From Pelomyxa schiedti (taxonomy: Eukaryota; Protista; Evosea): a stretch of 35,323 nt of DNA. The stretch covers positions 63,001 through 98,323 of the forward strand of contig JAHLWZ010000381.1 in NCBI GenBank assembly GCA_020536535.1, given 5' to 3'. The position numbers were made by a program, and so were the translations under genes. Positions 11,050 through 35,280 of this stretch are shown piece by piece (the stretch's first letter is position 1; every line of letters begins with the position of its first letter). The notes under the pieces were generated by a model. It saw only the letters and a program-made list of their open reading frames with translations, ran no database searches and was not told the origin of the DNA.

Positions 11050-14200
<3,151 letters not shown>

Positions 14201-15258
14201 TCCTTGCTGCCACACGATACTGCTGTATAACCTTTTTTTTTTGTTGTGCGTGTGGGTCTGAGACCACAGCTACGGCTTCTCACTCAATACATTACCTCCA
14301 GATCTGACGACAAAGCGTCGCCGCTGGCTGCCGATGCTGACATTGTGACTCTGTTTTTTTTTCTTTTTTTTTTTCGCCTTTCTGTTTCCGGTTATGCTAA
14401 ACCTTCGTTTCCAAAAAGATCCAGATTTTACAAAAGAAACATCATTTCGAGATCTAGAAGACACAAAAAAACCCAAAAAACCTACGTGCACCTCACAGCA
14501 TCGCCACTCACACTGAGGAGACAATACGCCTGTGTGTTTGTTGTGAACGAGAGTAAGCATGAGGGAGGAAAGAGAAGAAAAGAGGCACACTTGTTCTCTT
14601 TGTGGGCTGTGCTTGATGGAACAGACGTCGAGAGAGTAGTTTAGGAGTGCATTGCCTCCTCTTGCATTTACATGTGAACGCACAACGGCTAGAGCATCAC
14701 ACAAAAATTGGTGAACGAATGTGCCGAAGTCAGTCTCCCCGAGGGAGAAGGTCTCACGAATCAAGTGAATATTCACATAGCCCAAATAACTGTGATGCTG
14801 TTGTTGAGTCCTGTGTTGGAAGGAAAGTGTACAACAGTACCTCTGCACGTTCATTCCCGGAAGAAAGCTTGTCGGTGATATGATGATTTTTTCACCCATT
14901 GGGTTGGGTGACATATTTTTAGACGTGTCCTATTGGGTATTGTCAAAACCGGCTAGTAGACACCATACTAACCCGTGTGTCAGATATACACATTGCAGTT
15001 ATGCAAAACTGCACTTCAAAATCATTAACAATAGTTGCTGTTGTGTTAGTCCGGTAGATACAACATGGACTCACGGGTCTAACCTGGTAGTCATTGCTTA
15101 GTAGGCTCAATTCACGCAAAGGCATACCATTTCAGCCAAAGCAAAAAACATTTCGCGGAAAGCGGAATTGAATAATTTTGTAACCGGCTGTTTGCCAGAG
15201 TTGAATCTCACTCTCTGAACCATAGTAACAAGTTGCTGCGCGTGACCACTGCTAGAGT

Positions 15259-17250: not shown

Positions 17251-17655
17251 GATGGGAGAGGATGGAGGATTAGGGCTTGGCGCGGAGATTATTTTTGGAG
17301 GTATTTGATATAATTCTCTTTGTCTTGCAACAAGCTTCGATAGGAAGCCAATCTGGGAAGGATTCAGTGTTAGAAGGAAATTACATTAAAGTGTGCAGTG
17401 TGGTGCACACAGTACAGAGTGGATCGACATATTTTCAATCTCCCGAAGCTTTGAAAAAACGTCGCACTCTTTACTTGAACAGCGCAGTATGAGGGGTCCA
17501 GGAATAGGAAGAGCAACCAGACATACCTATCTCCATAGTAAATAAAAAGAATTTGGTTCTTCCTATACAGCTGTGCCGGAAGCTACACCAGTTAACATAT
17601 TACTGCCAATACTGATGTCTATCTGCAATCGGAAAACAGCATTCATTCCCTATGT

Positions 17656-19912: not shown

Positions 19913-20056
19913 AACCCTTGACAGGGGAGCAGGCAGTTAATTTTCTTGCTAGAAAGAGGCCGCAGAGAAAACGAACAGCAGCACAAACGGAAAGCTTCAC
20001 TCAAAATCACAAAATTTTTCTTTTAAATAACAACAACATAAGAGCTGTGAGCCACA

Positions 20057-23000
20057 TCATGACATTTCATCAGCTTCAGCAGTAGCAGTTGAAGGCGTAA
20101 TAACCACAGAGAAATTCAGCTTTGAATTGACCACAGTGATGCTGACAGTAGACCTTTCTCGTAACTGCCCGCCAATGATCATCTTTGACACCTCTGTGAT
20201 GATGTGCTTCTCCAGGAACCTTCCAATTGGTCGGGCTCCAAACTGAGGTTCGTAGGCCTGCTCGATCACGAATCTCTTCGCGTCGTCTCCCATAACTAGC
20301 TTGATGTTCTGGTTCTCCAGCCTCTGCGAAATTCGTGTGACCATCAGCCCGACGATTTTCACCAAATCAGCTTGGGTCAGAGGGTTGAAAATCACAATGT
20401 TATCCAAGCGGTTCAGGAATTCTGCATACGTATTGGTAAGTACCGGTTTCTTTCTATTATAATAATAATAGTAATTGCTAGAGTGCGGACATACCGGGAC
20501 GGAACTGTTTTCGTACAAGAGTCATTACTTTCTCTTGAACTCCGACCAGCATTGTTCCATCCGGCCTGATGTTACTTAAGAGGAGGTCGGATCCAATATT
20601 CGAGGTCATGATGATAATGGTATTGCTGAAATCAACAGTTCTGCCGTGGCCATCAGTGAGACGTCCATCATCAAGAACTGGGCAATGTTAGCTGTGGATA
20701 CAAGAAAAGAGGCACTTCGCACCTTGAAGAAGCACATTCCAAACCTGCGTATGTGCCTTTTCAATCTCATCGAAGAGGACCACTGAGTAAGGCCTCCTTC
20801 TTACAGCTTCTGTGAGCTGGCCACCTTCTTCAAATCCAACATAACCTGGAGGAGACCCAATCAACCTTGCGACACTATGCTGTTCCATGTACTATTGCAT
20901 GATATCAGTGAAATTCCTTCATTAGCTTAGTTACACACCTCAGACATATCTATCCTAATCATATGTTTCTCATCATCGAAAAGTTCGTATGCCAGTGCTT
21001 TTGCCAGCTCTGTTTTCCCAACACCGGAGGGACCCAGAAACTAATGACTTGTTAGAAGATATGAAGTTATCCACTAATCTTACCATGAAGCTTCCTGTTG
21101 GTTTACCCACATTGCCAAGTCCAGCACGGGATCGGAGTACTGCTTCAGACACTGCGTCAACGGCTTCATTTTGTCCAACAACTCTTTTATGTAGTTGGTC
21201 TGAGAGTTGTAGCAAGCGTTCACGTTCTGTTTGGCTCAGTTTGGTCACAGGTATTCCAGTCCATCTGCTAACTACTTCAGCGATTTGCTCTGGTCCAACT
21301 ACTTCGGTGAGCATTCTATCCTTTTCAGTACGTTGAAGTTCTTCCGTGAGCTGTGAAAACATGTTAGATTTACCTTATTAGTGTCATATTAGATACCATT
21401 ACAACGCGCCTCTCGAGCTCTGGGATAGCCCCATACTGCAAGTCTGCAACCAAAGCTAGGTCTCCTCTTCTCTTTGCAGACTCCATTTTGTTTTTCAGTA
21501 CTTCAGCTTTCTGTTTCAACTCATTTATCTCCATAACCCTTGCTTTTTCTGCCTCATGTCTGGCCTTAAGCGGCATCAATTCTTCTCTGATCTTAGCCAG
21601 CTCTTCCCGGACTTTCTCTAGTCGTTGTTTACTTCCCACATCTTTCTCCTTCTCCAAAGCTGTGGCCTCAATTTCTAGTTGAAGTTGCTTCCTCTCCAAT
21701 TGGTCAATAACTTCTGGCTGGCTGTCCAACTGCACTCTTACACTGGCAGCTGCTTCATCAATCAAGTCGATGGCCTTGTCTGGGAGGAAACGATTTGTGA
21801 TATATCTTTGGGCCAGCTGTGCAGCAACAACAAGGGCACTATCCAGCAATCTTACACCATGATGAGTCTCGTATCGCTCTTTCAATCCACGTAGAATGCT
21901 GATTGTATCAGGGATGCTTGGCTCACCCACATAGACTTGTTGGAATCTTCTTTCGAAGGCTGCATCTTTCTCAACATGTTTGCGATATTCGTCCAGAGTC
22001 GTAGCACCAATGCAACGTAGTTCCCCTCTGGCACTGAAGAAAAAGTGAATTATTTATATGGAGAAACAGAGAAAAATGATGTGCATACAGCATGGGTTTG
22101 AGCAAGTTGGCGGCGTCCATGGAACCTTCTGCTTTTCCTGCACCCAAAACGAGGTGAATCTCATCAATGAACAAAATAATCCCAGTCTTGGACTCTGCTA
22201 TTTCCTTTAACACTGCCTTGAGTCTCTCTTCAAACTCTCCACGGTATTTTGCGCCAGCAACAAGTGCACCCTTTTTTAACCAAGGTTACGATAAGAAGGA
22301 AAAGAAAAGCTAAATACCATATCCAGGGCAATCACTTTGCAGTGTAGATCAGTAGGTATATCGCCGCGTACAATTCTTTGAGCCAGACCTTCCACGATTG
22401 CAGTCTTTCCTACACCAGGCTCACCAATAAGGACTGGATTATTCTTTGTCCTCCTGTTGAAGAAAAGGTTAAGCTGAAAACTGCAGGATTTTGTCAGGGG
22501 AGCCGTACCTTGCCAATATGCGAATGACACGTCTTATTTCATCATCTCTGCCGATCACAGGGTCCAGTTTTCCCTGTTCTGCCATAGCAACCAAATCGTG
22601 ACCATATTTTTCCAGAGCATTGTATGAGTCCTCTGGGTTTTGGCCATCAATTTTCCGTGTTCCTCGAGTCTGTGTGATCACTTTCTCCATCTGGTATTTT
22701 GACACTCCTGCGTCGCGCATAGCACCTCCAACGTCCTTGTTCTCGTAAAGAGCCACTGTATTTCCAAACGTGAGCGTTGGTTATGTGGTCATTTATATCT
22801 ACATATAAACAAACAACAAAACAAAAAAAGCAAAATGACACATACTCAAGAGGTGATCCACTGCCACGTGACTATCCTTTTGTCTAGTTTGAAGCTCCAA
22901 TGCCGCTCTCAGCACCGCCATCATCGGTCCCCCAGGTGACATCACTGAAGGTGGTGGATCCTGCCTTGGTTGTTTTTCCTATTTAAAGGAATCAGTGCAG

Positions 23001-23300
23001 ATATACACCAAAATGCCACGACATCTTTGACACATGACATCTTAACCAAAAAAAAAAAAAAACTCCATGACACGACCGACATCTACAAATACTTACCACT
23101 AGCCTCTTGATCACAGGGAGCAGGACGGCCGCGTCGCCGCCGGCTTTGGAGAACACCTGGCGCGCCAGGCCCGCCTCGTCCGAAAACAGAGCGAGGGCCA
23201 CGTGGGACGGGTGCAGCTCGGGGGCACTGTGCTCCAGCGCCATGCGCTGCGCCTTGCTGAGCGCCTCCGCGGCCTTGTCCGTGAACTGTGCGTTGTCCAT
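20057..23300 (-). CDS. Hsp104/Hsp101/ClpB-type AAA+ disaggregase, cytosolic type with no transit peptide, at least 11 exons. Resolved exons include 23300..23097, about 22977..22819, about 22756..22509, about 22454..22319, and a terminal exon about 20460..20057 (stop TGA at 20059..20057)
   Basis: Near-continuous similarity to Hsp101/ClpB. The N-domain reads [42 protein letters not shown]1 has [61 protein letters not shown] and [31 protein letters not shown]. The middle coiled-coil domain follows. NBD2 has [78 protein letters not shown] and [13 protein letters not shown]. Donors include GTAAGT, GTATGT and GTACGG. Confidence 0.9.
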
Positions 23301-23587
23301 TGCGTGTCCAACTTGGATGTTGTGTTTTGATTGGTTGTTTATTACAAAGGTTTTTTTTTTGTCTGTGTTTTCTTTCTTTTCGTGTTTAAAAAGGTACCTT
23401 TGGAGATTCCGGCCAGATGCCGATGGAAGATGAAAGAAATACGAGTGGAATTTCACAGACTGCAACAGCACGACTGGCTGCCAAAACAAAGAAAAAGTAC
23501 AACAGTGTTATGGTGGATTTTTGTACTCGTTGTCAGTAAGGGTTGGTGTTTTATGCTTCCAAAATCAAATAAGTATTGTTCAAGTGA

Positions 23588-24333
23588 CTAACTGCACAAG
23601 AGGTTCTTGAACTCCTCGAAGGTGAGAACACCATCACCATCAATGTCAGCGTCATTGAAGAGGTCCATGGCCGCTTCGTCTTCAAGGTGTTGTCCAAGGA
23701 ATGTGATGACCTGAGCGTGTGTGTTGATGGTTTTGTGATGTCAGAGAGGACAAGGCAAGGAGATTGGGGCAACCCGTTTCACCTTTTTGAATTCCTCCGC
23801 ATCGATTGTCCTGCTTCCATCCTTGTCAAAGAACTGTGTAGTAAATGGCACCAGAAAGGTTAAAAAAATAAAAAAAAAAAGTGAGTGTGTTGTTGTGATA
23901 TGGTGATATGATGAGGGAAGTGAAGGGGAAGACTAGCCGCACGCACATCAAAGGCCTGCTTGATGGCCAGCTCAGTGTTGGTGTTTGAAATTTTGTCCCT
24001 CATCACGTTGATGAAACTCTCATATGTCAGTTTCCCTTTTTCTGTGACTGAGTTAGTGTTGTAATGCAGTGTCATCTCTCGAACAACCATCCAGCATCGC
24101 TCTGATGTCCCTCGACGACGGGTCCTGTGCTTTTGTTTGTTTTTTTTGATTCAGTCAGGGGTTGACGTGGCATGAATTTGTATGCCACACAAAAGGTACA
24201 CACCAAAGGAGCGCATCAGCTTTGTGAGCTCCTCGGCATCGAGCCTGTCGTCCCCATCCTCGTCAAACAAATCAAATGCCTCTGTGAGCTCCTCGAGTTG
24301 TTCAGCCAGCACCTCGTCTTTCGTTGACGTCAT
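23588..24333 (-). CDS. Calmodulin-like / caltractin-like EF-hand Ca2+-binding protein, 4 exons (about 24333..24205, about 24090..23950, about 23826..23785, about 23720..23588)
   Basis: Exon 1 is MTSTKDEVLAEQLEELTEAFDLFDEDGDDRLDAEELTKLMRS, an EF-hand loop DEDGDDRLDAEE, with donor GTGTGT. Exon 2 is ...EKGKLTYESFINVMRDKISNTNTELAIKQAFD. Exon 3 is FDKDGSRTIDAEEFKK, an EF loop, with donor GTGAAA. Exon 4 is HAQVITFLGQHLEDEAAMDLFNDADIDGDGVLTFEEFKNLLCS*, an EF loop DIDGDGVLTFEE. Confidence 0.75.
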
Positions 24334-24580: not shown

Positions 24581-27130
24581 ATGAGCTCCACAGCACCAGG
24601 AGATGGGGGGGCTCACGCTACCTCCACAACGTCCACTGCTGAAAGGTCTTCCTCCTCATCAAGTCATCACCACAGCAGTTCCCACAGAGACAAAGCAGAA
24701 CCAAGTGCCCCACAAGAGTCTCGCGCGAAGCGAGTGCAAAACGTGACATCAGGAGCACAACTGGTAGCAGCACTGGCATACAACCGAGAGAAACTCGTCG
24801 AGGACAGGTTCAGCAAGCTACAGGGTTTCGTGGCTGCTGAGCACCAGAGGGCCGCCGAGCAACCGCCGCCCCCCACGGGAAGCGGGACTGCCCCAACTCC
24901 AGCTCCTGAAGGCAAAGTGGAGGTGAAGAAGAAGAACATACTCAGAAGGATGTTTGACACCGCCAAGTCCTTCGTCTCGGAGTATCTGCCAGAGACCACG
25001 TCCAAAGCTGTTCTGGGTGCGAAAGTTGCTCTGGAAGAGTCGGACGCCGATGAACAGTTCAGGTGTTCCCTGATCATCAACGACAAGGTAGGCCAAAGGG
25101 CACTTCAGAGCCTGGCAATCAAGATGATCGACAACTTCCTTTCAACACCGAGCAAGACTCCTGCCCTCATCCGCGAAATCGTGCAGCTTGCGAGGGTGGA
25201 CGACAGGGAGGTGGTCCAGATGCTGGTGACGGCACTCGCGAACACCATCGACCAGAACGTGCTGTTCGACGTTCCGATGATCGAGGGACTGGCGGAGGTT
25301 CTCTTCCAGTGCTCGTCGCGCCACATTCCGGTGGAGAACCTCGTCGTGATCTATCGAATGCTCATCGCGAAGATCGAGACACTTCACTCGCAACAGCAGA
25401 ACGCAGACAGGGTGTTTCAGATACTCAAGGGGTTCAACAAGCTGCTCCGAGCGATGTGGGCATCGGGCGTGAGGGGTCTCGACGAGGAGGACAAGAAGAA
25501 GTCGCTCGGGATCCTCCAGGCGATGAAGGACCGATACGCGAATTACAAGAGCCTCGAGTGTTACGTCGCCGCAGAGGCCGAAGTTGCCAAGCAGAATCTT
25601 CAGCGAATTCAAGATGACGGTGATCCCCTCGCCGACGTCGCCGCGCGTCTTGGTCACGCATACATGGCCGTCGGCGCAATTGCAAATCTGGCCATGCAAT
25701 ACGACATCAGAGAGGTTTTCAACTGTGTCTCCGAGCTGAAGGAGTGCGTTGCCGACATTTACATCAAGAAGTCGTGGATGGATGTTCTATTCTTCATTGA
25801 CTTGATGTTGTGGCAGCTCACTGTCGGTTCGAAGGAACTCAAACCGATGCCGCCAGAGGAACAGGAGAGACTCAAGAGCACGATCGAACGTCTTTACTCC
25901 AAATCCAGGAAAGTTGGGCTTCGCCAAGCTGAAGGCCTGAGCAAAGACGTAACCGCTGCTGAGGAAGGAGAGAAATCGTTTTGGCGTAATATTGGCGACA
26001 GTGTGAAAAGAAAACTAAGTGAGGTCAAAGCTCAGTTTGGTGCTATCATTGAAGGTGAACATGACTTCAGCCTTGGATACGTCAATCTCCTCGACAACGT
26101 AATCAAGGCCGAACCGCTCCTCGACAACATCGACATGAAGAACTGGGCATTGGCGCAGCTCAAGGGAATTCTTGTTGGTGAGGATTATCGCGAGAGCACC
26201 CTGATGAAGTTCTTCAACTCGGAGGTTGGATTGATGATGGTGGTCATCAGCAAGCTTCGTGAGTATTCAACGATGCCTCCTCCAATCGGAAACACTGCAT
26301 GGAAGATCCTGGGAGAAGTAATGGAGGTCATCCAAACGGAGGAGGCAAAAAACCAGTCAAACAGAGACATCAAGAACAAGATCGACTTTAGTTTGGCGTG
26401 CTACCCTCTGAGTAGCCAGTTGGAGAGTCCGTGCTCCGAGCTTCGTCGCCCCCGGCTGGTTTACATTTCAGATAAGGAACAATGGTGGTACATCATGCCC
26501 AAAGCAACACCAGAACGCATCCTCCTTTCCACTCTTCCTCCACCACGCCCAAAAGAGCAACCAACTGCAGAGGTGATCAGTTGTTTCGATGACAAGTTGA
26601 TCAAGAGCGAGGCAAATTTCTCAGCACAGGCAAAGGCACTCTTGAGTCCGTTCAAGCTCAACTTCCTGTTTTTCATGAAAACCCACCCATCTCCTCCCAC
26701 GCAGCCGGGGGCCTTTGCTAATATCCACCCAATTTTCCAGTTCAAGATGTTGATTCCACCAACGAAACCACAAACCGTGCCACTGGAAGACACTTTGTGC
26801 ACAGCAGAGTTATTCATGAAAGCCAAGGCGGAGGTGTTGGCAACACTGAAAGACTCTGTTGATGATCAGGTGGTGGACCTGAGAAAACGTACTTTGGAGG
26901 ACCCACAGCTCGAGAGTCTGCTCAAAACATATGTTGAGAGCGATTGCAGGGAGGGCATCCTCGATAAGTCTGCACAATCATTGACTGGCACCCTGTTCAA
27001 GAAGTTCCTGAAACTGGAACGACCAACCACGTCCCAGTCTCATCGCCATCACAGTGGGAGGTCTCATTCCTCCTCTTCCTCCTCATCATCGTCATCCTCA
27101 AAAACTGAGACAACAACCACAACAGCCCCA
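24581..27130 (+). other. N-terminal approximately 830-aa region of the giant protein with no recognisable domain. Its position suggests an effector or signalling module
   Basis: It begins with Ser/Thr/His-rich low complexity, MSSTAPGDGGAHATSTTSTAERSSSSSSHHHSSSH. A long, predicted mostly alpha-helical region follows (LQSLAIKMIDNFL..., VVQMLVTALANTIDQNVLFDVPMIEGLAEVLFQCSS...). A poly-Ser linker (SSSSSSSSSSKTETTTTT) sits immediately before the Walker A. Confidence 0.5.
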
Positions 27131-30100
27131 CCACCAACCAAAACACTTGTCCTTGTTGGTTCAGGAGGAACTGGAAAATCAATATTCGGGCACTTTGTGG
27201 AGAAACTCCTGTGGGAGTCGTATGACAGGTGCCACGTCATCCCGATCTTCATCTCACTTGCAACAATCAAGAACCCAAGCAAGAACCTGTTCGAGAAGAC
27301 ATTGACATCGCTTGGGTTCTCGCAGAGCAACATCGACGAGATCAAGGAAGGGAGGCGTGTGTTGTTCATCCTCGATGGTTATGACGAGATCACCCTCGAG
27401 GTTGGTGTGAACATCTGCCAGGCCAACAAACTTTGTGACTGGAAACACTCTCAGGTCTTGGTGTCCAGCAGGCCTGAGAAGATTGGGCAAGATTTCTTCC
27501 AGAGTTTCTGTTGCCTTGGTGGTGGTGGTTCCAGCAGCAAACCTGGAAAACATGCTGCGACAACCACAGCAGCCTCCTCAGGAAACAAAACGGCAGGAGG
27601 AAGTTCTGGTGTTCCTCTTGGAAAGTCGTCCACAGTCACCACCAAACAGGTTGCCGAGCAGCCCGAAGTTCTGTGCTGGTATATCGAACCATTCACGAGG
27701 CACAAGATCGAGAAATACGTCAAGAAGTACAAAAAGTGCGGAGGATCACAAGGCGAGAGGAGCGCGGAACTGTTCAACCAACACAGGGAACTCCTGAAAG
27801 GTGTGGAGGAGCTGCTGAGGACTCCGTTCATCCTCACAATGTTCATGGAAATCCTTCCCACCCTCGTCGACAAAATGGAGCAGGACAGGAGCAGGAGGAG
27901 GTTCGACGACTCGAACATCAGCAACAGTTCATCCGCATTGTCGATGGAGCTATCATCGAACCTGACGAGGCTTGAACTTTACGACAGGTTCGTGGAACAG
28001 TGGTTCCAGAGGCAAAAGTCGAAGATCACACCAGAGAGGATGGCACAGTGCACTCAGCACCTCACCGACGACGTCGAGGAGGTCAAGTTCAACTTCCAGG
28101 TTGGTGGTGACATCATCGAGGACTTCAGGTCGTTCTCCGAGAACCTCGCGATCTTCATGTTCACGAAGGGAGCGACAGCACTTCAATACAGTCCCGTGTG
28201 GACACTGAACAGCCAGGGTGTCGAGGTGATCGATCAGAACAACCCACTCGAGAGGTTCTTCAGCCCCACGAACAGGAGCACCCAACTCGTCCTGTCTGGG
28301 TGTCCTGTTCAGAAGAAGGGAGCCAACACGTTCATGTTCCTCCACAAGTCGCTTCAGGAATACTTCATTGCTTACAAGATTTACAAGGAGATCCAACTCT
28401 GTTCCAGCATGCCATTCTCGAACTTTCCGCAAGTGAAGTGCAGGGAGACAATAAAGTTCACACAGAGCAGCTACAAGGAGACAACCCGTCAGATTGTGAG
28501 TGCGATTGTTGAGGAAATAGCTGAAAGGGTTGAGTCAAAGTGGTTGCCAGCAACTGAAAGCGATGATGAACCCACCCAGTTCTTCCGAATCATGATGGGT
28601 CCCTTTGCCGAAGTTGATAAATATGAATGTGAGGAAATTACAGAGATTTTTGTGGATTTCAAAGACCATTTCCTTGCGATGACGGATCCTCCTCCTCTTG
28701 AACTGGCTGAGGTTTCAAACGACAAGCACAAGTTGGAACACCGGCGCGGAATGAGATTGGACTGGCTACCTCAGAGCAGGGACAAAAAATGGACATGTAA
28801 TATTTGCGGCAGTGTGGGCGATTTGGAGAATCCCGACGACGAGTATTGGCACTGTGGCAAATGCGACTTGGACCTGTGCAAAAACTGTATTTCGAAGTTC
28901 CGTGTGTTGCCACCAAGCAAGAGCACACCAAGTGAAAACAACTCGGGCACAACAGCACCAGTTATCAGCAACACCTCTGGAGACAAAGAAGCTATGCCTG
29001 AAAAGCAACAAACAGCACCAGCCCCAAAAATTTCTACTGACAAGGCTGCAACCACATCCACTGTGCCTGTTACCTCCAGTGCTGTTGTATCAGAAGAACA
29101 ACAGGAGGCAAATTTCCAGAGACTCAGAGGACTGTTGGATAAGATCTTTTTTATTGTTGGGGAGAGGCGGCGTCTTGACAAATTGATGAATAAAATAAAA
29201 GAGGCACACTCCCGTCGTCAAGCACAATCTTCTCAGGGATGCTCTTTTGACAAGGAAAAAGTCATAGCTGACATCCTGCACAGTATGGACTTGCTTAGGC
29301 ACAGCGTGAAAGAGGCTTGTGATTCTGTTCTCTCGCACACACGGAAGGCCGAGTTGCACCTTGAAGAAGAAGAGGTCGACTACACAATCACAAAAAACAA
29401 CTTCAGACCAAGTTTGGGAGTTGTGATCGACATTCGAAGGAGGCTGAGGAAGATGCAAGCTGCAAAAGAGAAGGGAAAAAGAACAAAGGTTGTGAAGTAT
29501 CCAAAAGAGCTTGTTGTGAACCAGTCCTCTCTTGTAAAAGTCCACGATGTTGTAAGCTTTTTGTTGGAGATGATGAGGAGGGATGATTCCTTGGCAACAA
29601 CAGAAGATGCGAATAACAAGGACACATTCAGTCTGCGAAACGCACTCCTCCTCCTCATTGAGAATTCAAAGTGGACAAACAGAAAAATTGAAGGGGGCTC
29701 AACAGAAATCAATAGCAGCAACAAAATGAGGATTCACAGAGCTGACAGGGCTGCATCAACTGCGATGATGCTTCTTCTTCAAGGAAAACACAACTTCTCC
29801 AACGTGGATTTGAGGCACATCCACATCAACGGTGCAGACCTGAGTGGTGGAATATTTGGTGGTGCCAGTTTGGTGAAGGCTGACTTGAGTGACTGCAAAA
29901 TGCAGCAGGTGTGGCTCAGTGGAGCTGACTTGGCACACTGCGACATGACAGGTGTGAGCTTCAACGAGAGGGTTGCCTTCGATTTTGGTGTTGGTCTCGC
30001 GTGCGTTGATGTTTCTGCTGACGGGAAGAGGCTTTGTGCATGCCCACGCAACAAAGGTCACCCACTGTTGTGCGATATCACTGACGAGGACCACGAACTT

Positions 30101-33100
30101 AAGGAAATCGGCCCCGAGGTTCAGTGCAATCAGTGCAAGTTCTCTCCAAATGGGAAGAAAATATGCTTTGTTATGTCTGGAGATCAGTCTGTGTTGGTTC
30201 TGGAGACTCATGGCAACACCTGGTTCAACGTTGTGTTGCCAAAATCTACAGTTCTCATGGATGGGAAAAAAGAAAACCCCTCTGCAACAGCCAAGCCCTC
30301 GGCAACAACCAAGATTAGTGGAATGTCCACAGCTGTGCCCAACGCGTCGTCTTCTGCCACAATCAAAAGCATTTGCTTCTCCGCTGATTCCTCCGTTCTC
30401 GCCATTTCCGTTTCCAAAGAACGCCGGGATGCTTTTGACACATTCATATATTCCCTGACCTCTGCCGCTGCCACTCCAACCACAACATCGACTCCCCCTT
30501 CTTCTGCCTTGCAACAACCAGCGGCAGTAGCAGCAGCAGCACCGGAGAGCCCAAAAACCACAGGAACAGAAGCAGTCCTGCCACAACATACACTCAACGA
30601 CTGTGTTGGTCACTTTTTCATCAAGTCTTCTCTTTTGGTGACACAAAACGCCCCCAATAGCCCCCACTCTTGGTGGGAGGTTCCCGCTGCCGAAAAAACC
30701 GGTGCTGCCACGAGCACACCGCCGCCGCCAAAAGATCCACCAACCAACATTGGGAGCGACATTTCGATGTTTGCATTGTCACCAACAAGAAACAAACTTG
30801 CTGGATTCTCCCAAAAAACAGGAAAGGTGACGGTGTGGGAGTTCTCTGAGAAGAACTTGCGCTCATTCCACGTTCTTTTTGAGCACCAAGTCAGTGATCC
30901 ACAGGGTGGATTCTCCAAACTCTCTGTCCTCTCTTTCTCACCCAAAGGGACATGGCTTCTTGCTGGGACACAGTTGCTGCACGTCGAGACCCAGAGTGTG
31001 AACTGCGACGTGGCACAAAAGTGCTTCTTCACTGGTGAAGACACACTTGGTTACTTGGGAGACTCCCAGATTTATGAGGTCAAAGCTTCGTCTGGGAACA
31101 TGCGGGTCACTGAGAGTTGGCCTTGCCGTTGTGTTGCTGCTTGCAGATCCAAAGTTCTTATAGTCACGAGGAGACCAGCAGAACCAAAGGAAACTGCCGA
31201 ATCGGAGAAAACGAGTGCCGCTTCTTCCTCTGGGAGCAATCCACCACAAGAAGAACACGCAAACGACTCATCCAAGTGGGTTATTGTGCATGAGATGTGG
31301 ACAAGTGATGGGATCAAACAGTTACCACTTCCAAATGACTTCGACGAGGCAAACAAGAAGAATCTGCGTCCTTGTTTCTCGTCTGATGGGAAGTACGTCG
31401 CTGGGTGTGATGCCTCGACCTTATTCTTGTGGGATTTGAGCAGTGGCACCATGGTCAAACACAACAACACACTCACTGACTTTGAGTTCAAGGCTTGGTC
31501 GTTCTTCCCGGCAAAGGAAGGTGAACCTGTGAAGTTCGGTGTTGCTCTCACAAGAAAGCAAGTTGAAGATGATGCAAAAGAAAAAGAAAAGGAAGATGAT
31601 GGTGACAGTAAAGAGAGTGAGGATAATCATGAAGACAAAGACAATGACAAAGACGAAGACGAAGACCAAGCCAAAGATAAAGACGAAGATGAAGATGAAG
31701 ATGAGGATGAAGATGAGGACGAGAGTGAGAATGAGTATGAGAGTGAAGATGAGTCAATTTCAGAAATTCAGGAGGGCAAGTTTTTCTGTGAGAAAGACAT
31801 TCCAAAAGACCCCAATAATATTTTCTGTGTGTGGAAAGTGATGGGTGTAGATCCTTGTGAGGCTGTGGAGGAAAATGATGACACTCGAGATTCAGTCGTT
31901 TCAACACCGGGTTTAATCTTGGAGGAGCCAATCAGACTTCCACTGGGAAGAGCTATTTGGGACACCGTCGTTGTGTCTCCATCTTGGAAATCAGTGATAC
32001 TCCTGGTCACCAACCCCTACAAGGCTAACTTCATGGTTATCATTGACCAAGAGGCACATACAATCACAGGAACGTTGTCGCTTCTCTCGCCCGTTTTTAT
32101 TTTCCCAGGAATTACAACCGAGAGATCGCAAAGCACTTCAATTTTCGAATGCAGTCCCGACTTCGATCCCCACAGAAAGTTGCTAAAAGAAAAGGCCGAT
32201 CAAGTGCTTGCCGCAAAAGGTTGTGCGCCAGCCAGTGAAGATCGACAATATTTGTCCTTGCAGGGAGACACTTTGGTTGGCCTGGACCTGAACCTGTTTG
32301 GATCTATTACTCTCTTGGAGGAACTGGACCTGGAGAATGACAAAGACGCAAAGACAATTGATGAACTGGAGAGTTCTTCCAAGAATGAATATGGTATCTT
32401 CGAACGAAGCATGGGTGCCACTGTCCAAAGTGGCCCATGGTGCCTGTTGTTGCAGAGTGAAGTGGCAGCCATCGCCACAACCAAGTCAACGATTGTACTC
32501 TGGAAATTGGCCAGGCCAAAGAAGTGCTTCCTCACGTTGGGTCCCTTTTCAGGACACATATTCTCCGTTACAGCATCTGGTGACAACATGCTTGTTGTTG
32601 TTGCTGGAAGGGACATCCACTACATTCGTGTGGAAAGAAGGCCTGATGGTGATGGGTTCGTTGCAACATTGGTTCACAGAACAGGCCACACGATGCAGCC
32701 TCTCGTTGCTGCTCATGCAAACGTGCAAACAGTCAAAGGCCTGAGTGTGGAAAACAAAAGCCTTCTGAAGTCGCGTGCAATCATTGGAGCAATCAAAATC
32801 GAGAGGGAGTTCGATACCAAGGTTGTTCGACCACAGGTGGAAAAACTGAAATCGAAAGTGTGGACTTCAGCACAAAGCAAACCAAAGCAGATGCCCAAGT
32901 TCCTGGGTTTGTTCTTCTCGAATTATTCAAATCCAAGAAGCAATAAGTGCACGGCGGACCTTGCAGACAAGTATGAATCTCTCATTCAAGAACAACCAAA
33001 GAACACGTTCGCTATCATTGAGATCTCCTGTGATCGCTCCGCGAGATTGTACAAGACAAACGCACGAAAGGATATCAATGGATGGTCACATCTCCAGTTT

Positions 33101-35280
33101 GACGAAAGGGAATTGCAAGAGACTCTCGTGGATCTGTTTGATGTCACTCCATGTACGTCCCTCTCTTCTTCTTTTCTCGTTTTTTACTTTTGTTTCCTTT
33201 TTCTCTTCAAACAGCTGAACCCACAATCGTGGTTCTGAACCAACAAGGGGAGATGGTTTCCAAACATTCGGTTCATGTTCTCTTCAAAGAATTTGCCCAC
33301 CTCAAGTTCCCATGGTCAGTCGAATCTGTCAAGTGGGTGAAGTTTGAGTCACACAAACATCCTCTCGAGTTGTTGTCAACTCCAGAGTTCGTTTGTTCAA
33401 AATGTAACGAGGGTGGATCGGGATTGGCATATCACTGCCATTTGGACAGTCAGGACTTCCATCCACGGTGCACATCAGGTCCCTCTGAGTTGCCGGAATG
33501 GATCTTTTACAAAGGTCATGAGCACCCAGTTCGTCTGGACCAGAAGAGTTCTCCCCCCGAATATCACTGCAAGAAGTGCTCGCACGATGTTGAGCTCAAA
33601 GATTGCCTCAAACTGAAAAAGATTGATCCGCCACCAAAACCAATATTCTCATGGAGCATGTTTGACGGACATGAAACACCACTCCAGTTGGTATTCAAGA
33701 GCGGCTCTTATCAGTGTGCGCAATGCAAAGCAACAAAAGAAGGGGACTGGGTTTATCACTGTCCCAAGAGTAACCTTGACCGCGAGCCTTCCTGCCTCGG
33801 TGATCCCCACCCGTTGTCCAAATGGCTGAAGCTTGAATATCACCCCCACCCTGTCAAACTCACTGAGAAATCGCCAGTGAGCTGGAGTGATCTGCAGTGT
33901 AGTATATGCAGGAAACGTTGCACCAAGTGGTATTACACCTGCCCCGACTGTGAAAAGTTCTGCGTGGAAGTTGAATGCACTCTGACACAACCCTGTGAGG
34001 CACTTCCTGATCCCGTGGTGGAACCAAACAACTGGAAGAAATTCCCCAAAGACCCACACCCATTGAAAATGGTGTTCATGAAGGACTTCCAGTGTTGCCA
34101 GTGCGAGAAACCGGGATCATGTTGGGCACTCGAGTGCAAAGTGTGCAAACCGGAAGGTGTTTATTTCCACCCACAGTGTGCTGGAGAGCCTCGTGAACTC
34201 CCAAAGTTGGTCCTCGAATCAGGTGACTCGGCACACCCTCATCCACTTGCCTTGAAGTCGTCTGAATATGGTGGTACATGTGACAAATGTGGTGATGACA
34301 TCGAAGATACAGAGCAATTTTATTATTGCAAGCTCGATGGCCATTGCCTTCATTTGAAATGTTGTCTGTCAGCCACAGAACTTCCCGACGTCGAGGGGAA
34401 GCCACTGACGTGGAAGAAGTGCAACCAAGACACACACCCAGTGCAGCTGGTCCTGAGCAGCGGCGAGTTCACGTGCCACCACTGCAACAAGCCAAAACCG
34501 GGACCCGCGTGGGCGTACAGGTGCCACACCGAGAACGTTTTCTTCCACGTCGAGTGCCTCGAGAACCCGCAGAACCCGCAGAGGTGGATCATCCTCAACA
34601 GCAAGCACAAGCACCCGCTCCAGTTCGGCAAGAACCCAGGGTTCCTCAAACCCAAGTGCTGTGTGTGCAACAGCGACGGCGACATGGATGCGCAGGTGTA
34701 CGTCTACTTCTGCGAGAGCTGCAACGACTGGTGCCACGTCAAGTGCATGGAAGGGTGCGTGCCGCCGCCGCCGTTGATCAAGATCAAGAAGCACCAGCAC
34801 CCCCTGGCGTTCGTGGAGGCGGCCCCGCCCAAGCCAGAGGGCGCCGACGACGACAACAACATCGACGGCGACAGCGACGACGAGCGCGCGGCCGCCGCGC
34901 AGTGCGACACGTGCTACGGCGAGATCGCCGGGGAGCAGCACTACAAGTGCACAAAGTGCCCCGCTGTAAGGCACATCGGGTGCTGCTCCAAGCCCCAGGC
35001 GTTCGACCCCCTCGCCCCCGTCGGTGACGACGAAGACAGTAGCAGAAAGGGGAAGACAAAGGCCGATGCAGACAGTGACGACAGCGACGATGACAGCGAC
35101 GACGATGACGAGGACCACGGGTCTCAAGAGCAGTTTTTACTAGCGGCAAAGATGCGCGCCATAGAAGCCAGATATGCAACTTCCCAACATCTCCATGGCC
35201 ACCAGGCTGAAGACTCCAAGGCAGACAAAGGTAAAGACAAGGCCGAGGATGAAGCCGACTCCAGTGCCAGTGACGACTGA
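24581..35280 (+). CDS. Giant NACHT-family STAND NTPase (NLR-like) with pentapeptide repeats, a WD40-like beta-propeller, an acidic tract and nine C-terminal tandem DC1-like zinc fingers. CDS is join(24581..33152, 33215..35280), about 3,545 aa, with a single 62-nt phase-1 intron (GTACGT...ttcaaacag)
   Basis: Exon 1 is an 8.57-kb uninterrupted ORF. It contains Walker A LVLVGSGGTGKS (about 27150-27185), Walker B RVLFILDGYDEI (about 27361-27396), a sensor-like SSRP, LRTPFILTMFMEI, and the NACHT winged-helix motif FLHKSLQEYFIAYKI (about 28331-28375). The donor GTACGT at 33153 and the acceptor after a 45-nt pyrimidine-rich tract (ag at 33213-33214) join in frame (...LFDVTP-S-EPTIVVLNQ...) to a 2.07-kb ORF of DC1-like repeats, ending at TGA 35278..35280. 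If unspliced, the reading frame ends 28 codons after the donor in pyrimidine-tract sequence (LSSSFLVFYFCFLFLF). Confidence 0.8.
27130..28380 (+). other. NACHT NTPase domain of the giant protein
   Basis: GSGGTGKS (P-loop), hhhhDGYDE (Walker B with the NACHT-typical acidic pair), LVSSRP, the GxP-like RTPFILTMF and FLHKSLQEYFIA are all present, in canonical NACHT order and spacing. Confidence 0.85.
28788..28890 (+). other. Internal DC1-like / C1-like Cys-His zinc finger
   Basis: WTCNICGSVGDLENPDDEYWHCGKCDLDLCKNC has the pattern C-x2-C-x14-H-C-x2-C-D-L-D-L-C-x2-C. This resembles the DC1 core (Y-x-C-x2-C-d-f-d-L-H-x2-C). Confidence 0.55.
29790..29965 (+). other. Pentapeptide-repeat block of about 11 tandem A(D/N)LxX units
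   Basis: HNFSNVDLRHIHINGADLSGGIFGGASLVKADLSDCKMQQVWLSGADLAHCDMTGVSFNE shows A[DN]L / xDLxx periodicity every 5 residues. Confidence 0.8.
30060..32700 (+). other. WD40-like beta-propeller region, divergent repeats, interrupted by a poly-Asp/Glu tract at about 31560..31760
   Basis: WD-like strands recur: VQCNQCKFSPNGKKICFVMSGDQSVLVLE, IKSICFSADSSVLAISVS, ISMFALSPTRNKLAGFSQKTGKVTVWEF, LSVLSFSPKGTWLLAGT, NLRPCFSSDGKYVAGCDASTLFLWDL, HIFSVTASGDNMLVVVAGRDIHYIRV. The acidic insertion reads DDGDSKESEDNHEDKDNDKDEDEDQAKDKDEDEDEDEDEDEDESENEYESEDE. Confidence 0.6.
31560..31760 (+). repeat. GAN/GAY triplet-repeat tract, (gaa/gac/gat/gag)n, encoding the poly-D/E insertion
   Basis: gacgaagacgaagaccaagccaaagataaagacgaagatgaagatgaagatgaggatgaagatgaggacgagagtgagaatgag is read directly. 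Confidence 0.8.
33340..35000 (+). other. Nine tandem DC1-like (divergent C1, Cys/His-rich) zinc-finger repeats at the C-terminus of the giant protein
   Basis: Each unit has H-x-H-P-(L/V)-x-(L/F) followed by C-x2-C ... (Y/W)-x-C-x2-C ... H/C-x-x-C. Examples: HKHPLELLSTPEFVCSKCNEGGSGLAYHCHLDSQDFHPRC; HPHPVKLTEK...CSICRKRCTKWYYTCPDCEKFCVEVEC; HKHPLQFGKN...CCVCNSDGDMDAQVYVYFCESCNDWCHVKC; HQHPLAFVEA...CDTCYGEIAGEQHYKCTKCPAVRHIGC. GC3 rises markedly across the last three units. Confidence 0.7.

What the first reader, a model, noticed from the sequence alone, without database searches (positions are those of the whole stretch)
24581..35280. Giant, nearly intronless NLR-like gene combining NACHT, pentapeptide repeats, a WD40 propeller and nine tandem DC1 zinc fingers
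The sequence shows a continuous 8.57-kb ORF with textbook NACHT motifs (GSGGTGKS; LFILDGYDE; FLHKSLQEYFIA). It also has a block of pentapeptide repeats, WD40-like repeats with an embedded poly-D/E tract, and a downstream in-frame array of DC1-type Cys/His fingers. NACHT-WD40 proteins are an established class (fungal HET-E-type NLRs, animal NWD/Apaf-like). Pentapeptide repeats coupled to STAND NTPases are mainly a bacterial, especially cyanobacterial, theme. Tandem DC1 arrays are characteristic of plant DC1-domain proteins. I do not recognise the full combination, plus the 830-aa N-terminus of unknown function, as a described family. By inference it is a candidate innate-immunity or regulated-cell-death sensor: the N-terminus would act as effector, the NACHT as switch, and the repeats and DC1 fingers as sensor or lipid/metal-binding modules.
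Basis: partly seen in the sequence, partly recalled or inferred. Interest (0 to 1): 0.88.

Follow-up and report, generated by a model that had tools for sequence, protein, structure and literature searches.

The report
Giant amoebal NACHT–WD40 switch gene
This is a real 3,545-residue gene of a Pelomyxa-type anaerobic amoeba; it belongs to an already described class of NLR-like molecular switches but carries an unusual added tail of an inactive thioredoxin-like domain and nine zinc fingers.

Summary
Window 24581-35280 (+) encodes one gene: exon 1 (24581-33152), a 62-nt GT-AG intron (33153-33214) and exon 2 (33215-35280), giving 3,545 aa. Splicing restores a complete Thioredoxin_8 domain, so the NACHT part and the DC1 array are one product.

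The domain order is: ARM_5 alpha-solenoid, NACHT, a gene-specific insert with a zinc finger, a pentapeptide beta-helix, a degenerate WD40-type propeller region with a poly-acidic tract, a family cap motif, a tryparedoxin/nucleoredoxin-like domain without catalytic cysteines, and nine DC1 fingers.

The "unknown" N-terminus is Pfam ARM_5. ARM_5-NACHT-pentapeptide-WD40 is the standard layout of a large family (1,314 cluster representatives) already described in Mortierellomycota fungi and their endobacterium Mycoavidus. I also found it in Legionellales-, Coxiellaceae- and Chlamydiae-type genomes.

Pelomyxa schiedti has a monophyletic expansion of the family with different added ends (phosphodiesterase, C2). 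The Trx-like plus 9×DC1 tail was found in no other member.

The gene has one intron in 10.6 kb, in a genome averaging 7.4 introns per gene.

Verdict: a new variant of a known kind. An immune or symbiont-sensing role is inferred, not shown.

The parts
24581..33152 (+). Coding exon 1 (aa 1-2857 plus the first base of codon 2858). It starts at the first ATG after an A-rich leader.
   Evidence: ORF list and translation. The N-terminus is collinear with the Pelomyxa schiedti paralogue P0001.
33153..33214 (+). The only intron: 62 nt, GTACGT donor, pyrimidine-rich, AACAG acceptor, phase 1.
   Evidence: Sequence. The spliced CDS has no stop. After splicing, the Thioredoxin_8 match grows from 2-80/94 (34.3 bits) to 2-93/94 (46.5 bits). 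The tryparedoxin II alignment runs across the junction. Neighbouring genes have introns of similar size.
33215..35280 (+). Coding exon 2 (rest of codon 2858 to aa 3545, plus the TGA stop at 35278-35280).
24968..27115 (+). N-terminal alpha-solenoid region (aa 130-845). The Pfam ARM_5 core is aa 169-390 (nt 25085-25750). A small beta element and further helices precede the NACHT.
27137..28390 (+). NACHT NTPase plus helical and winged-helix parts (aa 853-1270). Walker A is at 27158-27181, Walker B at 27362-27388, the sensor-1 Arg within 27455-27475, the PFxL motif at 27821-27844 and the FLHKSLQEYFIA motif at 28337-28372. A gene-specific low-complexity insert lies at 27509-27667.
   Evidence: PF05729. 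In the 13-sequence alignment, G15, G18, G20, K21, D87, D90, E91, R119, P237 and F238 are invariant. The family profile's best solved relatives are the NLRP9, NLRC4 and NLRP1 NACHTs.
28583..29239 (+). Gene-specific insertion (aa ~1335-1553) that no BLAST HSP to the paralogues covers. It carries a C-x2-C ... H-C-x2-C ... C-x2-C zinc finger (aa 1404-1436, nt 28790-28888) and an S/T/P-rich linker.
   Evidence: The BLAST HSPs to P0004 end at aa 1335 and resume at aa 1553; P0004 residues 1243 and 1248 flank the gap, so P0004 lacks the insertion. No HSP to P0005 or P0006 covers it either. C1_2 scores 23.5 bits (below the cut-off of 26) and ZZ 14.9 bits. It aligns with the DC1 units.
29738..29980 (+). 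Pentapeptide-repeat beta-helix with its preceding helix (aa 1720-1800).
   Evidence: PF00805: E = 4e-13. 41% identity to P0002 over 91 aa. The AlphaFold model has pLDDT 84-90 with a strand every fifth residue.
29981..32734 (+). Degenerate WD40-type beta-propeller region (aa 1801-2718), interrupted by several low-complexity inserts, including the poly-D/E tract (aa 2328-2398, nt 31562-31774).
   Evidence: Weak WD40, PD40 and beta-propeller Pfam matches. The first blades (aa 1800-1945) and last blades (aa 2612-2740) match family blades in jackhmmer. The equivalent module is ~700-830 aa in 71 representatives, against 1,020 aa here. The AlphaFold model is poor and aa 2293-2624 is not modelled. The acidic tract is a tandem repeat.
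32735..32815 (+). Family C-terminal cap, a variant of the 'GLS..N..LL.QRGA' motif (the match VKGLSVENKSLLKSRA starts one residue earlier, at aa 2718 / nt 32732). It marks the end of the conserved core.
   Evidence: Aligned with the caps of P0004, P0005, P0007, P0002 and P0127.
32888..33321 (+). Tryparedoxin/nucleoredoxin-type thioredoxin-like domain (aa ~2770-2893), split by the intron. The WCPPC active site is replaced by SNPRS.
   Evidence: PF13905: 46.5 bits. Alignment to tryparedoxin II (1i5g, 1fg4) covers residues 31-152 of the 161-residue segment queried (aa 2740-2900), i.e. about aa 2770-2891; both catalytic Cys positions are substituted.
33337..34992 (+). Array of nine DC1 (C1_2) Cys/His zinc fingers (aa 2899-3450). 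Units start near aa 2904, 2959, 3010, 3067, 3137, 3198, 3264, 3322 and 3384. Units 2 and 3 are degenerate, and unit 9 carries an acidic insert.
   Evidence: PF03107: 111.9 bits, 7 stretches. Unit alignment gives mean pairwise identity of 28%. There is no DNA tandem repeat here.
34993..35277 (+). Acidic, low-complexity C-terminal tail (aa 3451-3545).
   Evidence: Translation; masked as low complexity.

Best explanation
The region is one protein-coding gene of Pelomyxa schiedti or a very close relative. It belongs to a lineage-specific expansion of the ARM_5-NACHT-pentapeptide-WD40 family of STAND NTPases, the 'NACHT-PPR-WD40 NLRs' previously described in Mortierellomycota fungi and Mycoavidus.

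Shown here:
- the gene model;
- the domain order;
- intact NTPase motifs;
- family membership;
- monophyly of the Pelomyxa copies;
- the absence of this tail from every family member examined. The tail is a redox-dead tryparedoxin/nucleoredoxin-like domain followed by nine DC1 zinc fingers, with a further zinc finger inserted after the NACHT.

Inferred mechanism, by analogy with solved NACHT and Apaf-type STANDs:
- In the resting state the C-terminal repeat region (pentapeptide helix plus propellers) holds the NACHT in an ADP-bound, closed form.
- Binding of a ligand, or of a modified host protein, to the repeat region or to the DC1 tail releases it.
- Nucleotide exchange follows and drives oligomerisation.
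- The clustered alpha-solenoid and appended modules then recruit or activate downstream partners.

The cysteine-less Trx-like domain cannot be an oxidoreductase. Together with the zinc-finger array it most likely acts as a binding, targeting or bait module (for a protein, a membrane or a nucleic acid).

The biological role is inference only. Plausible roles are surveillance of microbes or of the amoeba's intracellular symbionts, or another switch-type signalling function.
For: Gene model:
- define the exons and the intron.
- The Trx domain is restored by splicing.

Domains.

NTPase motifs are invariant across the family alignment. The family profile hits the NLRP9, NLRC4 and NLRP1 NACHTs in the PDB.

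Family:
- 1,314 representatives at E <= 1e-3 and 744 at E <= 1e-10.
- Collinear ARM, NACHT and PPR blocks in most of the top 150.
- The PPR-to-cap module has a conserved length.
- P0002 has ARM_5, pentapeptide repeats and WD40 blades in the same order. Its NACHT is supported by the precomputed PF05729 hit and by 26% identity across the NACHT.

Pelomyxa paralogues:
- KAH3742964.1: ARM_5-NACHT-PPR-WD40-PDEase_I.
- KAH3765146.1: C2-ARM_5-NACHT-PPR-WD40.
- KAH3762836.1 is a third full-length copy.
- Closer copies at 72-80% identity are P0001, P0003 and P0117.
- The Pelomyxa NACHT clade has 98/100 neighbour-joining bootstrap support.

Literature: NACHT-PPR-WD40 NLRs (PMC11291939), the helical N-terminal NLR domain (PMC9815663), and the TRX plus DC1 architecture of AtNRX1 (PMC7730559).

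The tail is unique: none of the 152 sequences has a Trx or DC1 block, and a database search with the tail found only one weak hit.

The N-terminal fold is a HEAT/ARM solenoid with no enzyme fold.
Against: - There is no transcript or protein evidence, and no RNA data could be consulted. The single-transcript claim rests on domain continuity across the intron.
- The source assembly may come from amplified single cells, as the published P. schiedti genome does (PMC8887013). A chimeric join cannot be formally excluded.
- The propeller is very degenerate: the AlphaFold model has pLDDT 45, and aa 2293-2624 has no detectable blades. Sensor function may be altered or lost.
- No ligand, partner or phenotype is known for any member of this family.
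- One paralogue ends in a cyclic-nucleotide phosphodiesterase. That points as much to general signalling as to immunity.
Absence of the tail elsewhere is therefore not proven.
Confidence: 0.72

Rival explanations
1. There are two independent genes. One is a NACHT-PPR-WD40 gene ending at the TGA at 33236-33238. The other starts at the ATG at 33151, and its hydrophobic N-terminus (MYVPLFFFSRFLLLFPFSLQ) acts as a signal peptide in front of a secreted DC1-array protein.
For: ORF 33151..35280 starts with ATG and stays open through the putative intron. Its first 20 residues are hydrophobic. No transcript data are available.
Against: This reading cuts a thioredoxin fold in two. Residues matching Thioredoxin_8 positions 2-80 lie at the end of ORF 1, and the rest lie at the start of ORF 2. 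After splicing, the match becomes complete (2-93/94; 46.5 against 34.3 bits), and the tryparedoxin II alignment runs straight across the junction.

The 'signal peptide' is the translation of a pyrimidine-rich 62-nt GT-AG segment, the same size class as neighbouring introns.

The three full-length Pelomyxa paralogues also carry extra sequence after the cap: a PDEase_I domain in P0004 and unassigned sequence in P0005 and P0006.
Confidence: 0.07
2. The fusion of the NLR core to the Trx-DC1 tail is an assembly chimera, for example from multiple-displacement amplification of single cells, and not a real gene structure.
For: The published P. schiedti assembly was built from amplified single cells and scaffolded with RNA (PMC8887013). 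The exact 2,885-aa ORF is absent from the public protein collection, and no near-identical protein turned up in the searches. The tail has no detectable relative in that species. GC3 differs slightly between the exons: 0.57 against 0.65.
Against: The reading frame stays open for 8.57 kb through the cap-to-Trx junction, with only about 38 residues between the two domains. The Trx domain itself begins in the same exon as the core. There is no repeat or inverted junction at that position. Paralogues also have appended C-terminal modules.
Confidence: 0.06
3. The gene core is a fairly recent horizontal acquisition from an intracellular bacterium. It still behaves like a bacterial STAND defence gene, which would explain the lack of introns.
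For: - One intron in 10.6 kb, against 7.43 introns per gene genome-wide, and at least three introns within 400 nt of the neighbouring EF-hand gene.
- The best full-length bacterial matches are MAGs labelled Coxiellaceae, Legionellales, Francisellaceae and Chlamydiae, plus a 2.0-Mb gammaproteobacterial contig with eight full-length NACHT matches and one partial match.
- P0010 is the highest-scoring homologue in the list that has a demonstrably bacterial gene context (RNase R and SLT neighbours). It also groups with the Pelomyxa clade in the tree.
- The literature proposes bacterium-to-fungus transfer for this same family (PMC11291939).
Against: - Identity to any bacterial or fungal member is only 21-38%.
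- The Pelomyxa copies form one clade (98/100) whose members are only 33-50% identical to each other, so the family is old in this lineage.
- Deeper nodes have 18-28% support, so neither donor nor direction can be read.
- Codon preference correlates with the neighbours (r = 0.70).
- The protein is full of eukaryote-style S/T and D/E low-complexity inserts.
- The PADLOC defence models give only one marginal hit.
- Transfer could equally have gone from host to bacterium.
Confidence: 0.25
4. It is a decaying or non-functional family member: a pseudogene in the making that keeps an open frame by chance or recency.
For: The propeller is degenerate and has about 300 aa of low-complexity inserts. There is a 53-aa insert inside the NACHT. 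The Trx active site is lost, and two DC1 units are degenerate.
Against: A 10.6-kb frame with no stop, frameshift or broken splice site is very unlikely without selection. All NTPase motifs are intact. Seven DC1 units still score above the Pfam domain threshold. Low-complexity inserts sit in loops or linkers rather than in motifs.
Confidence: 0.08

Closest known systems
NACHT-PPR-WD40 NOD-like receptors of Mortierellomycota and Mycoavidus cysteinexigens (PMC11291939), with a helical N-terminal NLR domain ('NLR_Helical', PMC9815663; probably the same as Pfam ARM_5 PF23948, not tested)
   Same: Same domain order and the same family by sequence: an ARM_5 solenoid, NACHT with identical motif set, the 'AA.NA..L' helix plus pentapeptide helix directly before the propeller, and the 'GLS..N..LL.QRGA'-type cap.
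   Different: - Only 21-38% identical.
- The Pelomyxa N-terminal region is about 200 aa longer.
- The propeller here is degenerate with large inserts, whereas the fungal and bacterial members have about 14 crisp WD40 blades.
- The zinc-finger insert after the NACHT and the Trx-like plus 9×DC1 tail are absent from all 152 sequences examined.
- The host is an archamoeba, not a fungus or its endobacterium.
Pelomyxa schiedti paralogues KAH3742964.1, KAH3765146.1 and KAH3762836.1 (named 'NB-ARC domain protein' in GenBank), plus the fragment KAH Pelo_4670
   Same: Same core, 33-35% identical over aa ~174-1335 and 46-50% in the NACHT. They form one clade with 98/100 support. Each has extra terminal modules.
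   Different: Their additions are a cyclic-nucleotide phosphodiesterase (C-terminal), a C2 domain (N-terminal) or C-terminal sequence with no Pfam match. None has Trx or DC1. The GenBank name 'NB-ARC' is imprecise: Pfam finds NACHT, not NB-ARC.
Fungal HET-E/HET-D-type and animal NWD/TEP1/Apaf-1-type STAND-WD40 proteins (from my own knowledge)
   Same: A STAND NTPase followed by WD40 propellers, expected to work as ligand-released, nucleotide-driven oligomerising switches.
   Different: They have other N-terminal domains (HET, CARD and so on) and no pentapeptide helix between NTPase and propeller. They lack ARM_5 and a zinc-finger tail. None of them appeared among the named hits here.
Plant nucleoredoxin NRX1 (three TRX domains plus one DC1 domain; PMC7730559) and tryparedoxins (PDB 1i5g, 1fg4)
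   Same: A tryparedoxin-type thioredoxin fold followed directly by DC1 zinc finger(s).
   Different: Here there is one Trx-like domain with both catalytic cysteines replaced (WCPPC becomes SNPRS), and nine DC1 units instead of one. The module is fused to a STAND NTPase. No sequence-level orthology was demonstrated.
Plant NLRs with integrated domains, and thioredoxin-guarding NLRs such as LOV1/TRX-h5 (from my own knowledge, not tested)
   Same: An NLR-like switch that carries an extra, catalytically inactive copy of a cellular protein module. This is the logic of an integrated decoy.
   Different: The NTPase class differs (NACHT rather than NB-ARC), the lineage is unrelated, no matching free nucleoredoxin was found in Pelomyxa, and there is no functional evidence.

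Membership tests
NACHT NTPase (Pfam PF05729; STAND class) | Walker A G-x4-GK[ST] | tested here: met
   GSGGTGKS at aa 860-867. G15, G18, G20 and K21 are invariant in the 13-sequence family alignment.
NACHT NTPase (Pfam PF05729; STAND class) | Walker B hhhhD followed by acidic residues (DGxDE) | tested here: met
   LFILDGYDE at aa 928-936. D87, D90 and E91 are invariant.
NACHT NTPase (Pfam PF05729; STAND class) | Profile match above the curated threshold | tested here: met
   27.7 bits on the whole ORF and 32.1 bits on the segment, against a cut-off of 26.7. Only model positions 2-96/167 match, because of a 53-aa insert. Paralogues P0005 and P0006 match positions 1-163 (P0004 only 1-99). No NB-ARC match was listed at E <= 1.
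NACHT NTPase (Pfam PF05729; STAND class) | Nucleotide binding or hydrolysis and nucleotide-dependent oligomerisation | not testable with these tools
   Needs biochemistry.
ARM_5-NACHT-PPR-WD40 family ('NACHT-PPR-WD40 NLRs') | N-terminal ARM_5 alpha-solenoid (the published NLR_Helical domain is probably the same) | tested here: met
ARM_5-NACHT-PPR-WD40 family ('NACHT-PPR-WD40 NLRs') | Pentapeptide-repeat helix between the NACHT module and the propeller | tested here: met
   PF00805: E = 4e-13 at aa 1738-1796. 41% identity to P0002 over 91 aa. The model has pLDDT 84-90.
ARM_5-NACHT-PPR-WD40 family ('NACHT-PPR-WD40 NLRs') | About 14 WD40 blades (a module of about 700-830 aa from the PPR to the cap) | tested here: inconclusive
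   First and last blades are recognisable. The motif count is above chance, but the pattern was chosen post hoc. The centre (aa 2293-2624) is neither detectable nor modelled. The module is 1,020 aa long with inserts.
ARM_5-NACHT-PPR-WD40 family ('NACHT-PPR-WD40 NLRs') | C-terminal cap motif GLS..N..LL.QRGA | tested here: met
   The variant VKGLSVENKSLLKSRA at aa 2718-2733 aligns with the caps of family members.
WD40 repeat (Pfam PF00400) | Profile match above the curated threshold | tested here: inconclusive
   20.0 bits on the whole ORF, below the cut-off of 27. On the aa 1800-2334 segment it scores 29.7 bits, from a single repeat at aa 2265-2285.
DC1 / C1_2 zinc finger (Pfam PF03107) | HxHP[LV] ... 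CxxC ... C ... HxxC signature and profile match | tested here: met
   111.9 bits against a cut-off of 26, with 7 stretches. Nine alignable units.
Nucleoredoxin / tryparedoxin | Tryparedoxin-type thioredoxin fold (Thioredoxin_8) | tested here: met
   PF13905: 46.5 bits against a cut-off of 27. Tryparedoxin II match at E = 7.9e-5 over nearly the whole chain.
Nucleoredoxin / tryparedoxin | WC[PG]PC redox-active dithiol | tested here: not met
   The aligned positions read SNPRS, so both cysteines are replaced. It is therefore not filed as a nucleoredoxin, only as nucleoredoxin-like in layout.
NLR in the functional sense (innate immune receptor) | A demonstrated role in non-self recognition or regulated cell death | not testable with these tools
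   No functional data exist for any member of this family. The literature itself calls the role open (PMC11291939).
Bacterial anti-phage STAND systems (PADLOC models) | Match to a known defence-system model | tested here: not met
   There was only a marginal 19-bit match to the candidate system PDC-S60 over the P-loop region.

The most novel reading that the evidence does not exclude
The catalytically dead nucleoredoxin-like module (Trx-like plus nine DC1 fingers) is an integrated bait. On this reading the amoeba has fused a copy of a redox or zinc-finger host target to an NLR-like switch, so that manipulation of that target by an intracellular microbe or symbiont trips the NACHT. This would be an independent, amoebozoan invention of the plant 'integrated decoy' principle. 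It would sit in a gene family that circulates between protists, fungi and their intracellular bacteria.
Probability: 0.1. Interest if true: 0.8.

Novelty: new variant of a known kind. Interest (0 to 1): 0.5.

Why it matters
If the gene model is right, it extends the NACHT-PPR-WD40 NLR class beyond Mortierellomycota fungi and their endobacterium. The new host is an anaerobic archamoeba that lives with obligate intracellular prokaryotes.

In that lineage the conserved switch core has been decorated with different end modules: a phosphodiesterase, a C2 domain, and here a dead thioredoxin plus nine zinc fingers.

The family also turns up in Legionellales-, Coxiellaceae-, Francisellaceae- and Chlamydiae-type genomes. 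The pattern suggests a STAND family that is traded between hosts and their intracellular bacteria.

This gives NLR-evolution and symbiosis researchers a concrete set of genes to test. It does not by itself answer an open question, and the core architecture is already published.

Tried and rejected
- A homologue search with the full 3,545-aa protein timed out.
Masking did not lift the cap. The middle part and the tail gave one weak hit each.
- Exact look-ups of paralogue loci found nothing on record, so the intron content of the paralogues could not be checked.
The unspliced ORF is not in the collection.
- The genome scan with the 13-sequence NACHT alignment failed for lack of a conserved stretch. 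It worked with the four Pelomyxa sequences.
- PADLOC and NCBIfam gave nothing useful beyond pentapeptide models.
- The AlphaFold model of the propeller region was too poor to use for a fold search.
- My first two attempts to build a single-blade HMM collected too few blades. I replaced them with a post hoc motif count.
- I considered and rejected a prokaryotic origin for the window itself. The neighbouring genes are split into short exons with GT-AG introns.


Full report
**Observation.**

The window holds an ORF at 24581..33238 (+, 2,885 aa) and an overlapping ORF in another frame at 33151..35280 (709 aa). Between them lies a 62-nt segment (33153-33214) with a GTACGT donor, a pyrimidine-rich body and an AACAG acceptor. 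Removing it gives a 10,638-nt CDS with no internal stop, encoding 3,545 aa.

The splice is supported by protein evidence:
- The Thioredoxin_8 match is truncated on the unspliced ORF (positions 2-80 of 94; 34.3 bits). It becomes complete after splicing (2-93 of 94; 46.5 bits).
- An alignment to tryparedoxin II (PDB 1i5g, 1fg4) runs straight across the junction.

So the coordinates, the long exon, the near absence of introns and the listed motifs are all real.

**Anatomy** (aa positions; nt coordinates are in the parts list).

- **N-terminus:** an S/T-rich leader, then an alpha-solenoid region (aa ~130-845).
  - Its core is Pfam ARM_5 (PF23948; 64 bits).
  - An AlphaFold model built on 18 sequences is almost entirely helical (pLDDT 66, pTM 0.61).
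- **NACHT (aa 853-1270):** Walker A, Walker B (DGYDE), the sensor-1 arginine and the PFxL and F.HKS..EYF motifs are all conserved in a 13-sequence family alignment. A 53-aa low-complexity insert is unique to this gene.
  - The family profile's best solved relatives are the NACHT modules of NLRP9, NLRC4 and NLRP1.
  - No NB-ARC match appears.
- **Insertion (aa ~1335-1553):** no BLAST HSP to the paralogues covers it, and in P0004 the residues flanking it are almost adjacent. It carries a small cross-brace zinc finger at aa 1404-1436. This scores below threshold for C1_2 and ZZ but aligns with the DC1 units.
- **Pentapeptide helix (aa 1720-1800):** a helix plus pentapeptide beta-helix (PF00805, E = 4e-13). 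It is modelled at pLDDT 84-90 with a strand every fifth residue.
- **Propeller region (aa 1801-2718):** WD40-type but degenerate.
  - Only one repeat passes PF00400, and only on the isolated segment.
  - The first and last blades match family blades.
  - The centre is neither detected nor modelled.
  - The region contains several low-complexity inserts, including the poly-D/E tract (aa 2328-2398), which is also the only tandem DNA repeat in the gene.
- **Cap (aa 2718-2733):** a cap motif shared with the family closes the core.
- **Trx-like domain (aa ~2770-2893):** tryparedoxin/nucleoredoxin type. The WCPPC active site reads SNPRS.
- **DC1 array:** nine DC1 fingers at aa 2899-3450. Seven are above the Pfam domain threshold, units 2 and 3 are degenerate, and mean pairwise identity is 28%.
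- **Tail:** acidic and low-complexity.

**Source and context.**

The closest proteins are Pelomyxa schiedti entries at 72-80% identity (P0001 Pelo_4670, P0003, P0117) and three full-length paralogues. No identical or near-identical protein turned up in the public collections searched. The window is therefore from P. schiedti or a very close relative, and this gene is not in the public protein set. That is an inference.

The neighbours are ordinary eukaryotic genes cut into short exons:
- an EF-hand gene placed head-to-head (start at 24333, minus strand), with at least three introns of about 45-80 nt within 400 nt;
- Clp/Hsp104-like, C2CD5-like and GH3 fragments.

The published genome averages 7.43 introns per gene (PMC8887013). 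One intron in 10.6 kb is thus a real anomaly. GC3 is somewhat higher than in the neighbours (0.57 and 0.65 against 0.29-0.61), but codon preference correlates with them (r = 0.70).

**The family.**

An exhaustive profile-free search with aa 130-1300 found 1,314 cluster representatives at E <= 1e-3 and 744 at E <= 1e-10. BLAST against the top 150 representatives plus P0001 and P0002 (152 sequences, 151 with a match) gave these block combinations:

| Blocks detected | Sequences |
|---|---|
| ARM + NACHT + PPR | 60 |
| ARM + NACHT | 36 |
| NACHT + PPR | 35 |
| Trx or DC1 block | 0 |

In 71 representatives the stretch from the PPR to the cap is about 700-830 aa. Here it is 1,020 aa.

Named members are Mortierellomycota (Modicella, Linnemannia, Mortierella) and Mycoavidus cysteinexigens. 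This matches the literature:
- a helical alpha-solenoid NLR N-terminal domain shared by Pezizomycotina, Mortierellomycetes and Mycoavidus (PMC9815663).

A scan of one genome per prokaryotic species added more members. Full-length NACHT matches came from MAGs labelled Coxiellaceae, Legionellales, Francisellaceae and Chlamydiae. A 2.0-Mb gammaproteobacterial contig has eight full-length NACHT matches and one partial match, and a second contig of the same MAG has one more. Two of these encode ARM_5-NACHT, one of them with ankyrin repeats.

The 2,934-aa homologue P0010 sits beside RNase R and a lytic transglycosylase, which is a bacterial context.

Caveat: short MAG contigs can be mis-binned host DNA. 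The 2.0-Mb contig and the Mycoavidus genomes cannot.

**Pelomyxa expansion.**

The three full-length paralogues share the core (33-35% identity over aa ~174-1335; 46-50% in the NACHT) but differ at their ends:
- KAH3742964.1 ends in a class I cyclic-nucleotide phosphodiesterase.
- KAH3765146.1 starts with a C2 domain.
- KAH3765146.1 and KAH3762836.1 carry long C-terminal sequence after the cap that has no Pfam match.

A neighbour-joining tree of the NACHT region (41 sequences, 326 columns) puts the four Pelomyxa sequences in one clade with 98/100 support. Deeper nodes have only 18-28% support, so no donor or direction of transfer can be named.

**How it most likely works.**

Shown: intact NTPase motifs and the STAND-plus-repeat layout.

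Inferred from solved NACHT and Apaf-type switches: the repeat region keeps the NTPase closed. A ligand or a modified host factor releases it. Nucleotide exchange drives oligomerisation, and the clustered non-catalytic modules signal onward.

The N-terminal solenoid shows no enzyme or pore fold, so it probably recruits partners.

The Trx-like domain lacks both catalytic cysteines and cannot be an oxidoreductase. With nine zinc fingers it is best read as a binding, targeting or bait module. Trx followed by DC1 is the nucleoredoxin arrangement (PMC7730559).

The variable parts in the Pelomyxa paralogues are the ends (C-terminal PDEase or Trx-DC1, N-terminal C2), and one paralogue carries a phosphodiesterase. 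The appended ends may therefore be outputs, and a non-immune signalling role is a live alternative.

**Rivals.**

- **Two separate genes.** This is disfavoured because it would split a thioredoxin fold, and its 'signal peptide' is the translation of a typical intron.
- **Assembly chimera.** This cannot be excluded without long reads. It is disfavoured because the Trx domain starts in the same uninterrupted exon as the core, and because paralogues also have appended tails.
- **Recent bacterial transfer.** This fits the intron paucity and the family's distribution. It conflicts with the old, diverged Pelomyxa clade, the host-like codon use and the eukaryote-style inserts. An ancient transfer in either direction remains plausible.
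- **Decay.** This is unlikely for a 10.6-kb open frame with intact motifs.

**Novelty and verdict.**

The core architecture and the N-terminal domain are already known and named.

The taxon (an archamoeba with obligate endosymbionts), the end-module diversity and the link to intracellular bacteria make it a useful lead for NLR evolution, but not a categorical novelty.

Interest is 0.5. The finding is a new variant of a known kind.

Noticed in passing
window 25169-25780 (aa 197-400), compared with P0001 (Pelo_4670): The closest paralogue is about 80% identical overall. It contains a block of about 204 residues that is 100% identical, flanked by much more divergent stretches. This mosaic suggests gene conversion or recombination between close paralogues.
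   Followed up: partly
window 24581-35280: Neither the 2,885-aa ORF nor any near-identical protein is in the public protein collections, although paralogues from Pelomyxa schiedti are. The gene seems to be unannotated, or the window comes from another assembly or strain.
   Followed up: partly
window 23500-24333 (minus strand): An EF-hand (calmodulin/centrin-like) gene starts head-to-head 247 nt upstream of the big gene. It is cut by at least three introns of about 45-80 nt within its first 400 nt. This contrasts sharply with the 8.57-kb exon next door.
   Followed up: partly
window 7427-8365 (+), 14270-18980 (-), 19382-23489 (-): Fragmented exons of a glycosyl hydrolase family 3 gene, a C2CD5-like gene (YbjQ-like domains) and a Clp/Hsp104-type AAA+ chaperone gene (Clp_N, AAA_lid_9).
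   Followed up: no
window 9001-10000, 11001-12000 and 16001-17000: Strong strand-composition skews: GC skew +0.35 and +0.30, and AT skew down to -0.35. They probably reflect low-complexity or purine-rich coding tracts.
   Followed up: no
P0004 (KAH3742964.1), residues 2167-2399: One Pelomyxa paralogue of this NLR-like family ends in a class I 3',5'-cyclic-nucleotide phosphodiesterase domain (174 bits). That would be a STAND switch fused to a cNMP-degrading enzyme.
   Followed up: partly
L007, L009, L013, L014, L016, L017, L019 (contig CAVYTG010000001.1, 2.0 Mb); L015 (second contig CAVYTG010000002.1 of the same MAG): One uncultured gammaproteobacterial MAG shows seven full-length NACHT matches and one partial match (L019) on its 2.0-Mb contig, plus another full-length match on a second contig. 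This is an unusual load for so small a genome, and it resembles host-associated bacteria such as Mycoavidus.
   Followed up: partly
L003:3542-11164 (Legionellales MAG): A 2,541-aa ORF combines ARM_5 and NACHT with a long ankyrin-repeat array in place of pentapeptide and WD40 repeats. The family therefore swaps its repeat module.
   Followed up: no
L082:4368-13172 (P0010, Logan SRR33307855): A 2,934-aa ARM_5-NACHT-pentapeptide protein lies next to RNase R and a lytic transglycosylase, which is a bacterial context. It groups weakly with the Pelomyxa clade in the NACHT tree.
   Followed up: partly
window 32700-32815 (aa ~2708-2745), and the caps of family members: In the AlphaFold model, the family cap after the propeller again shows strands spaced five residues apart. 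This hints that pentapeptide-like rungs bracket the propeller on both sides. The confidence is low.
   Followed up: no
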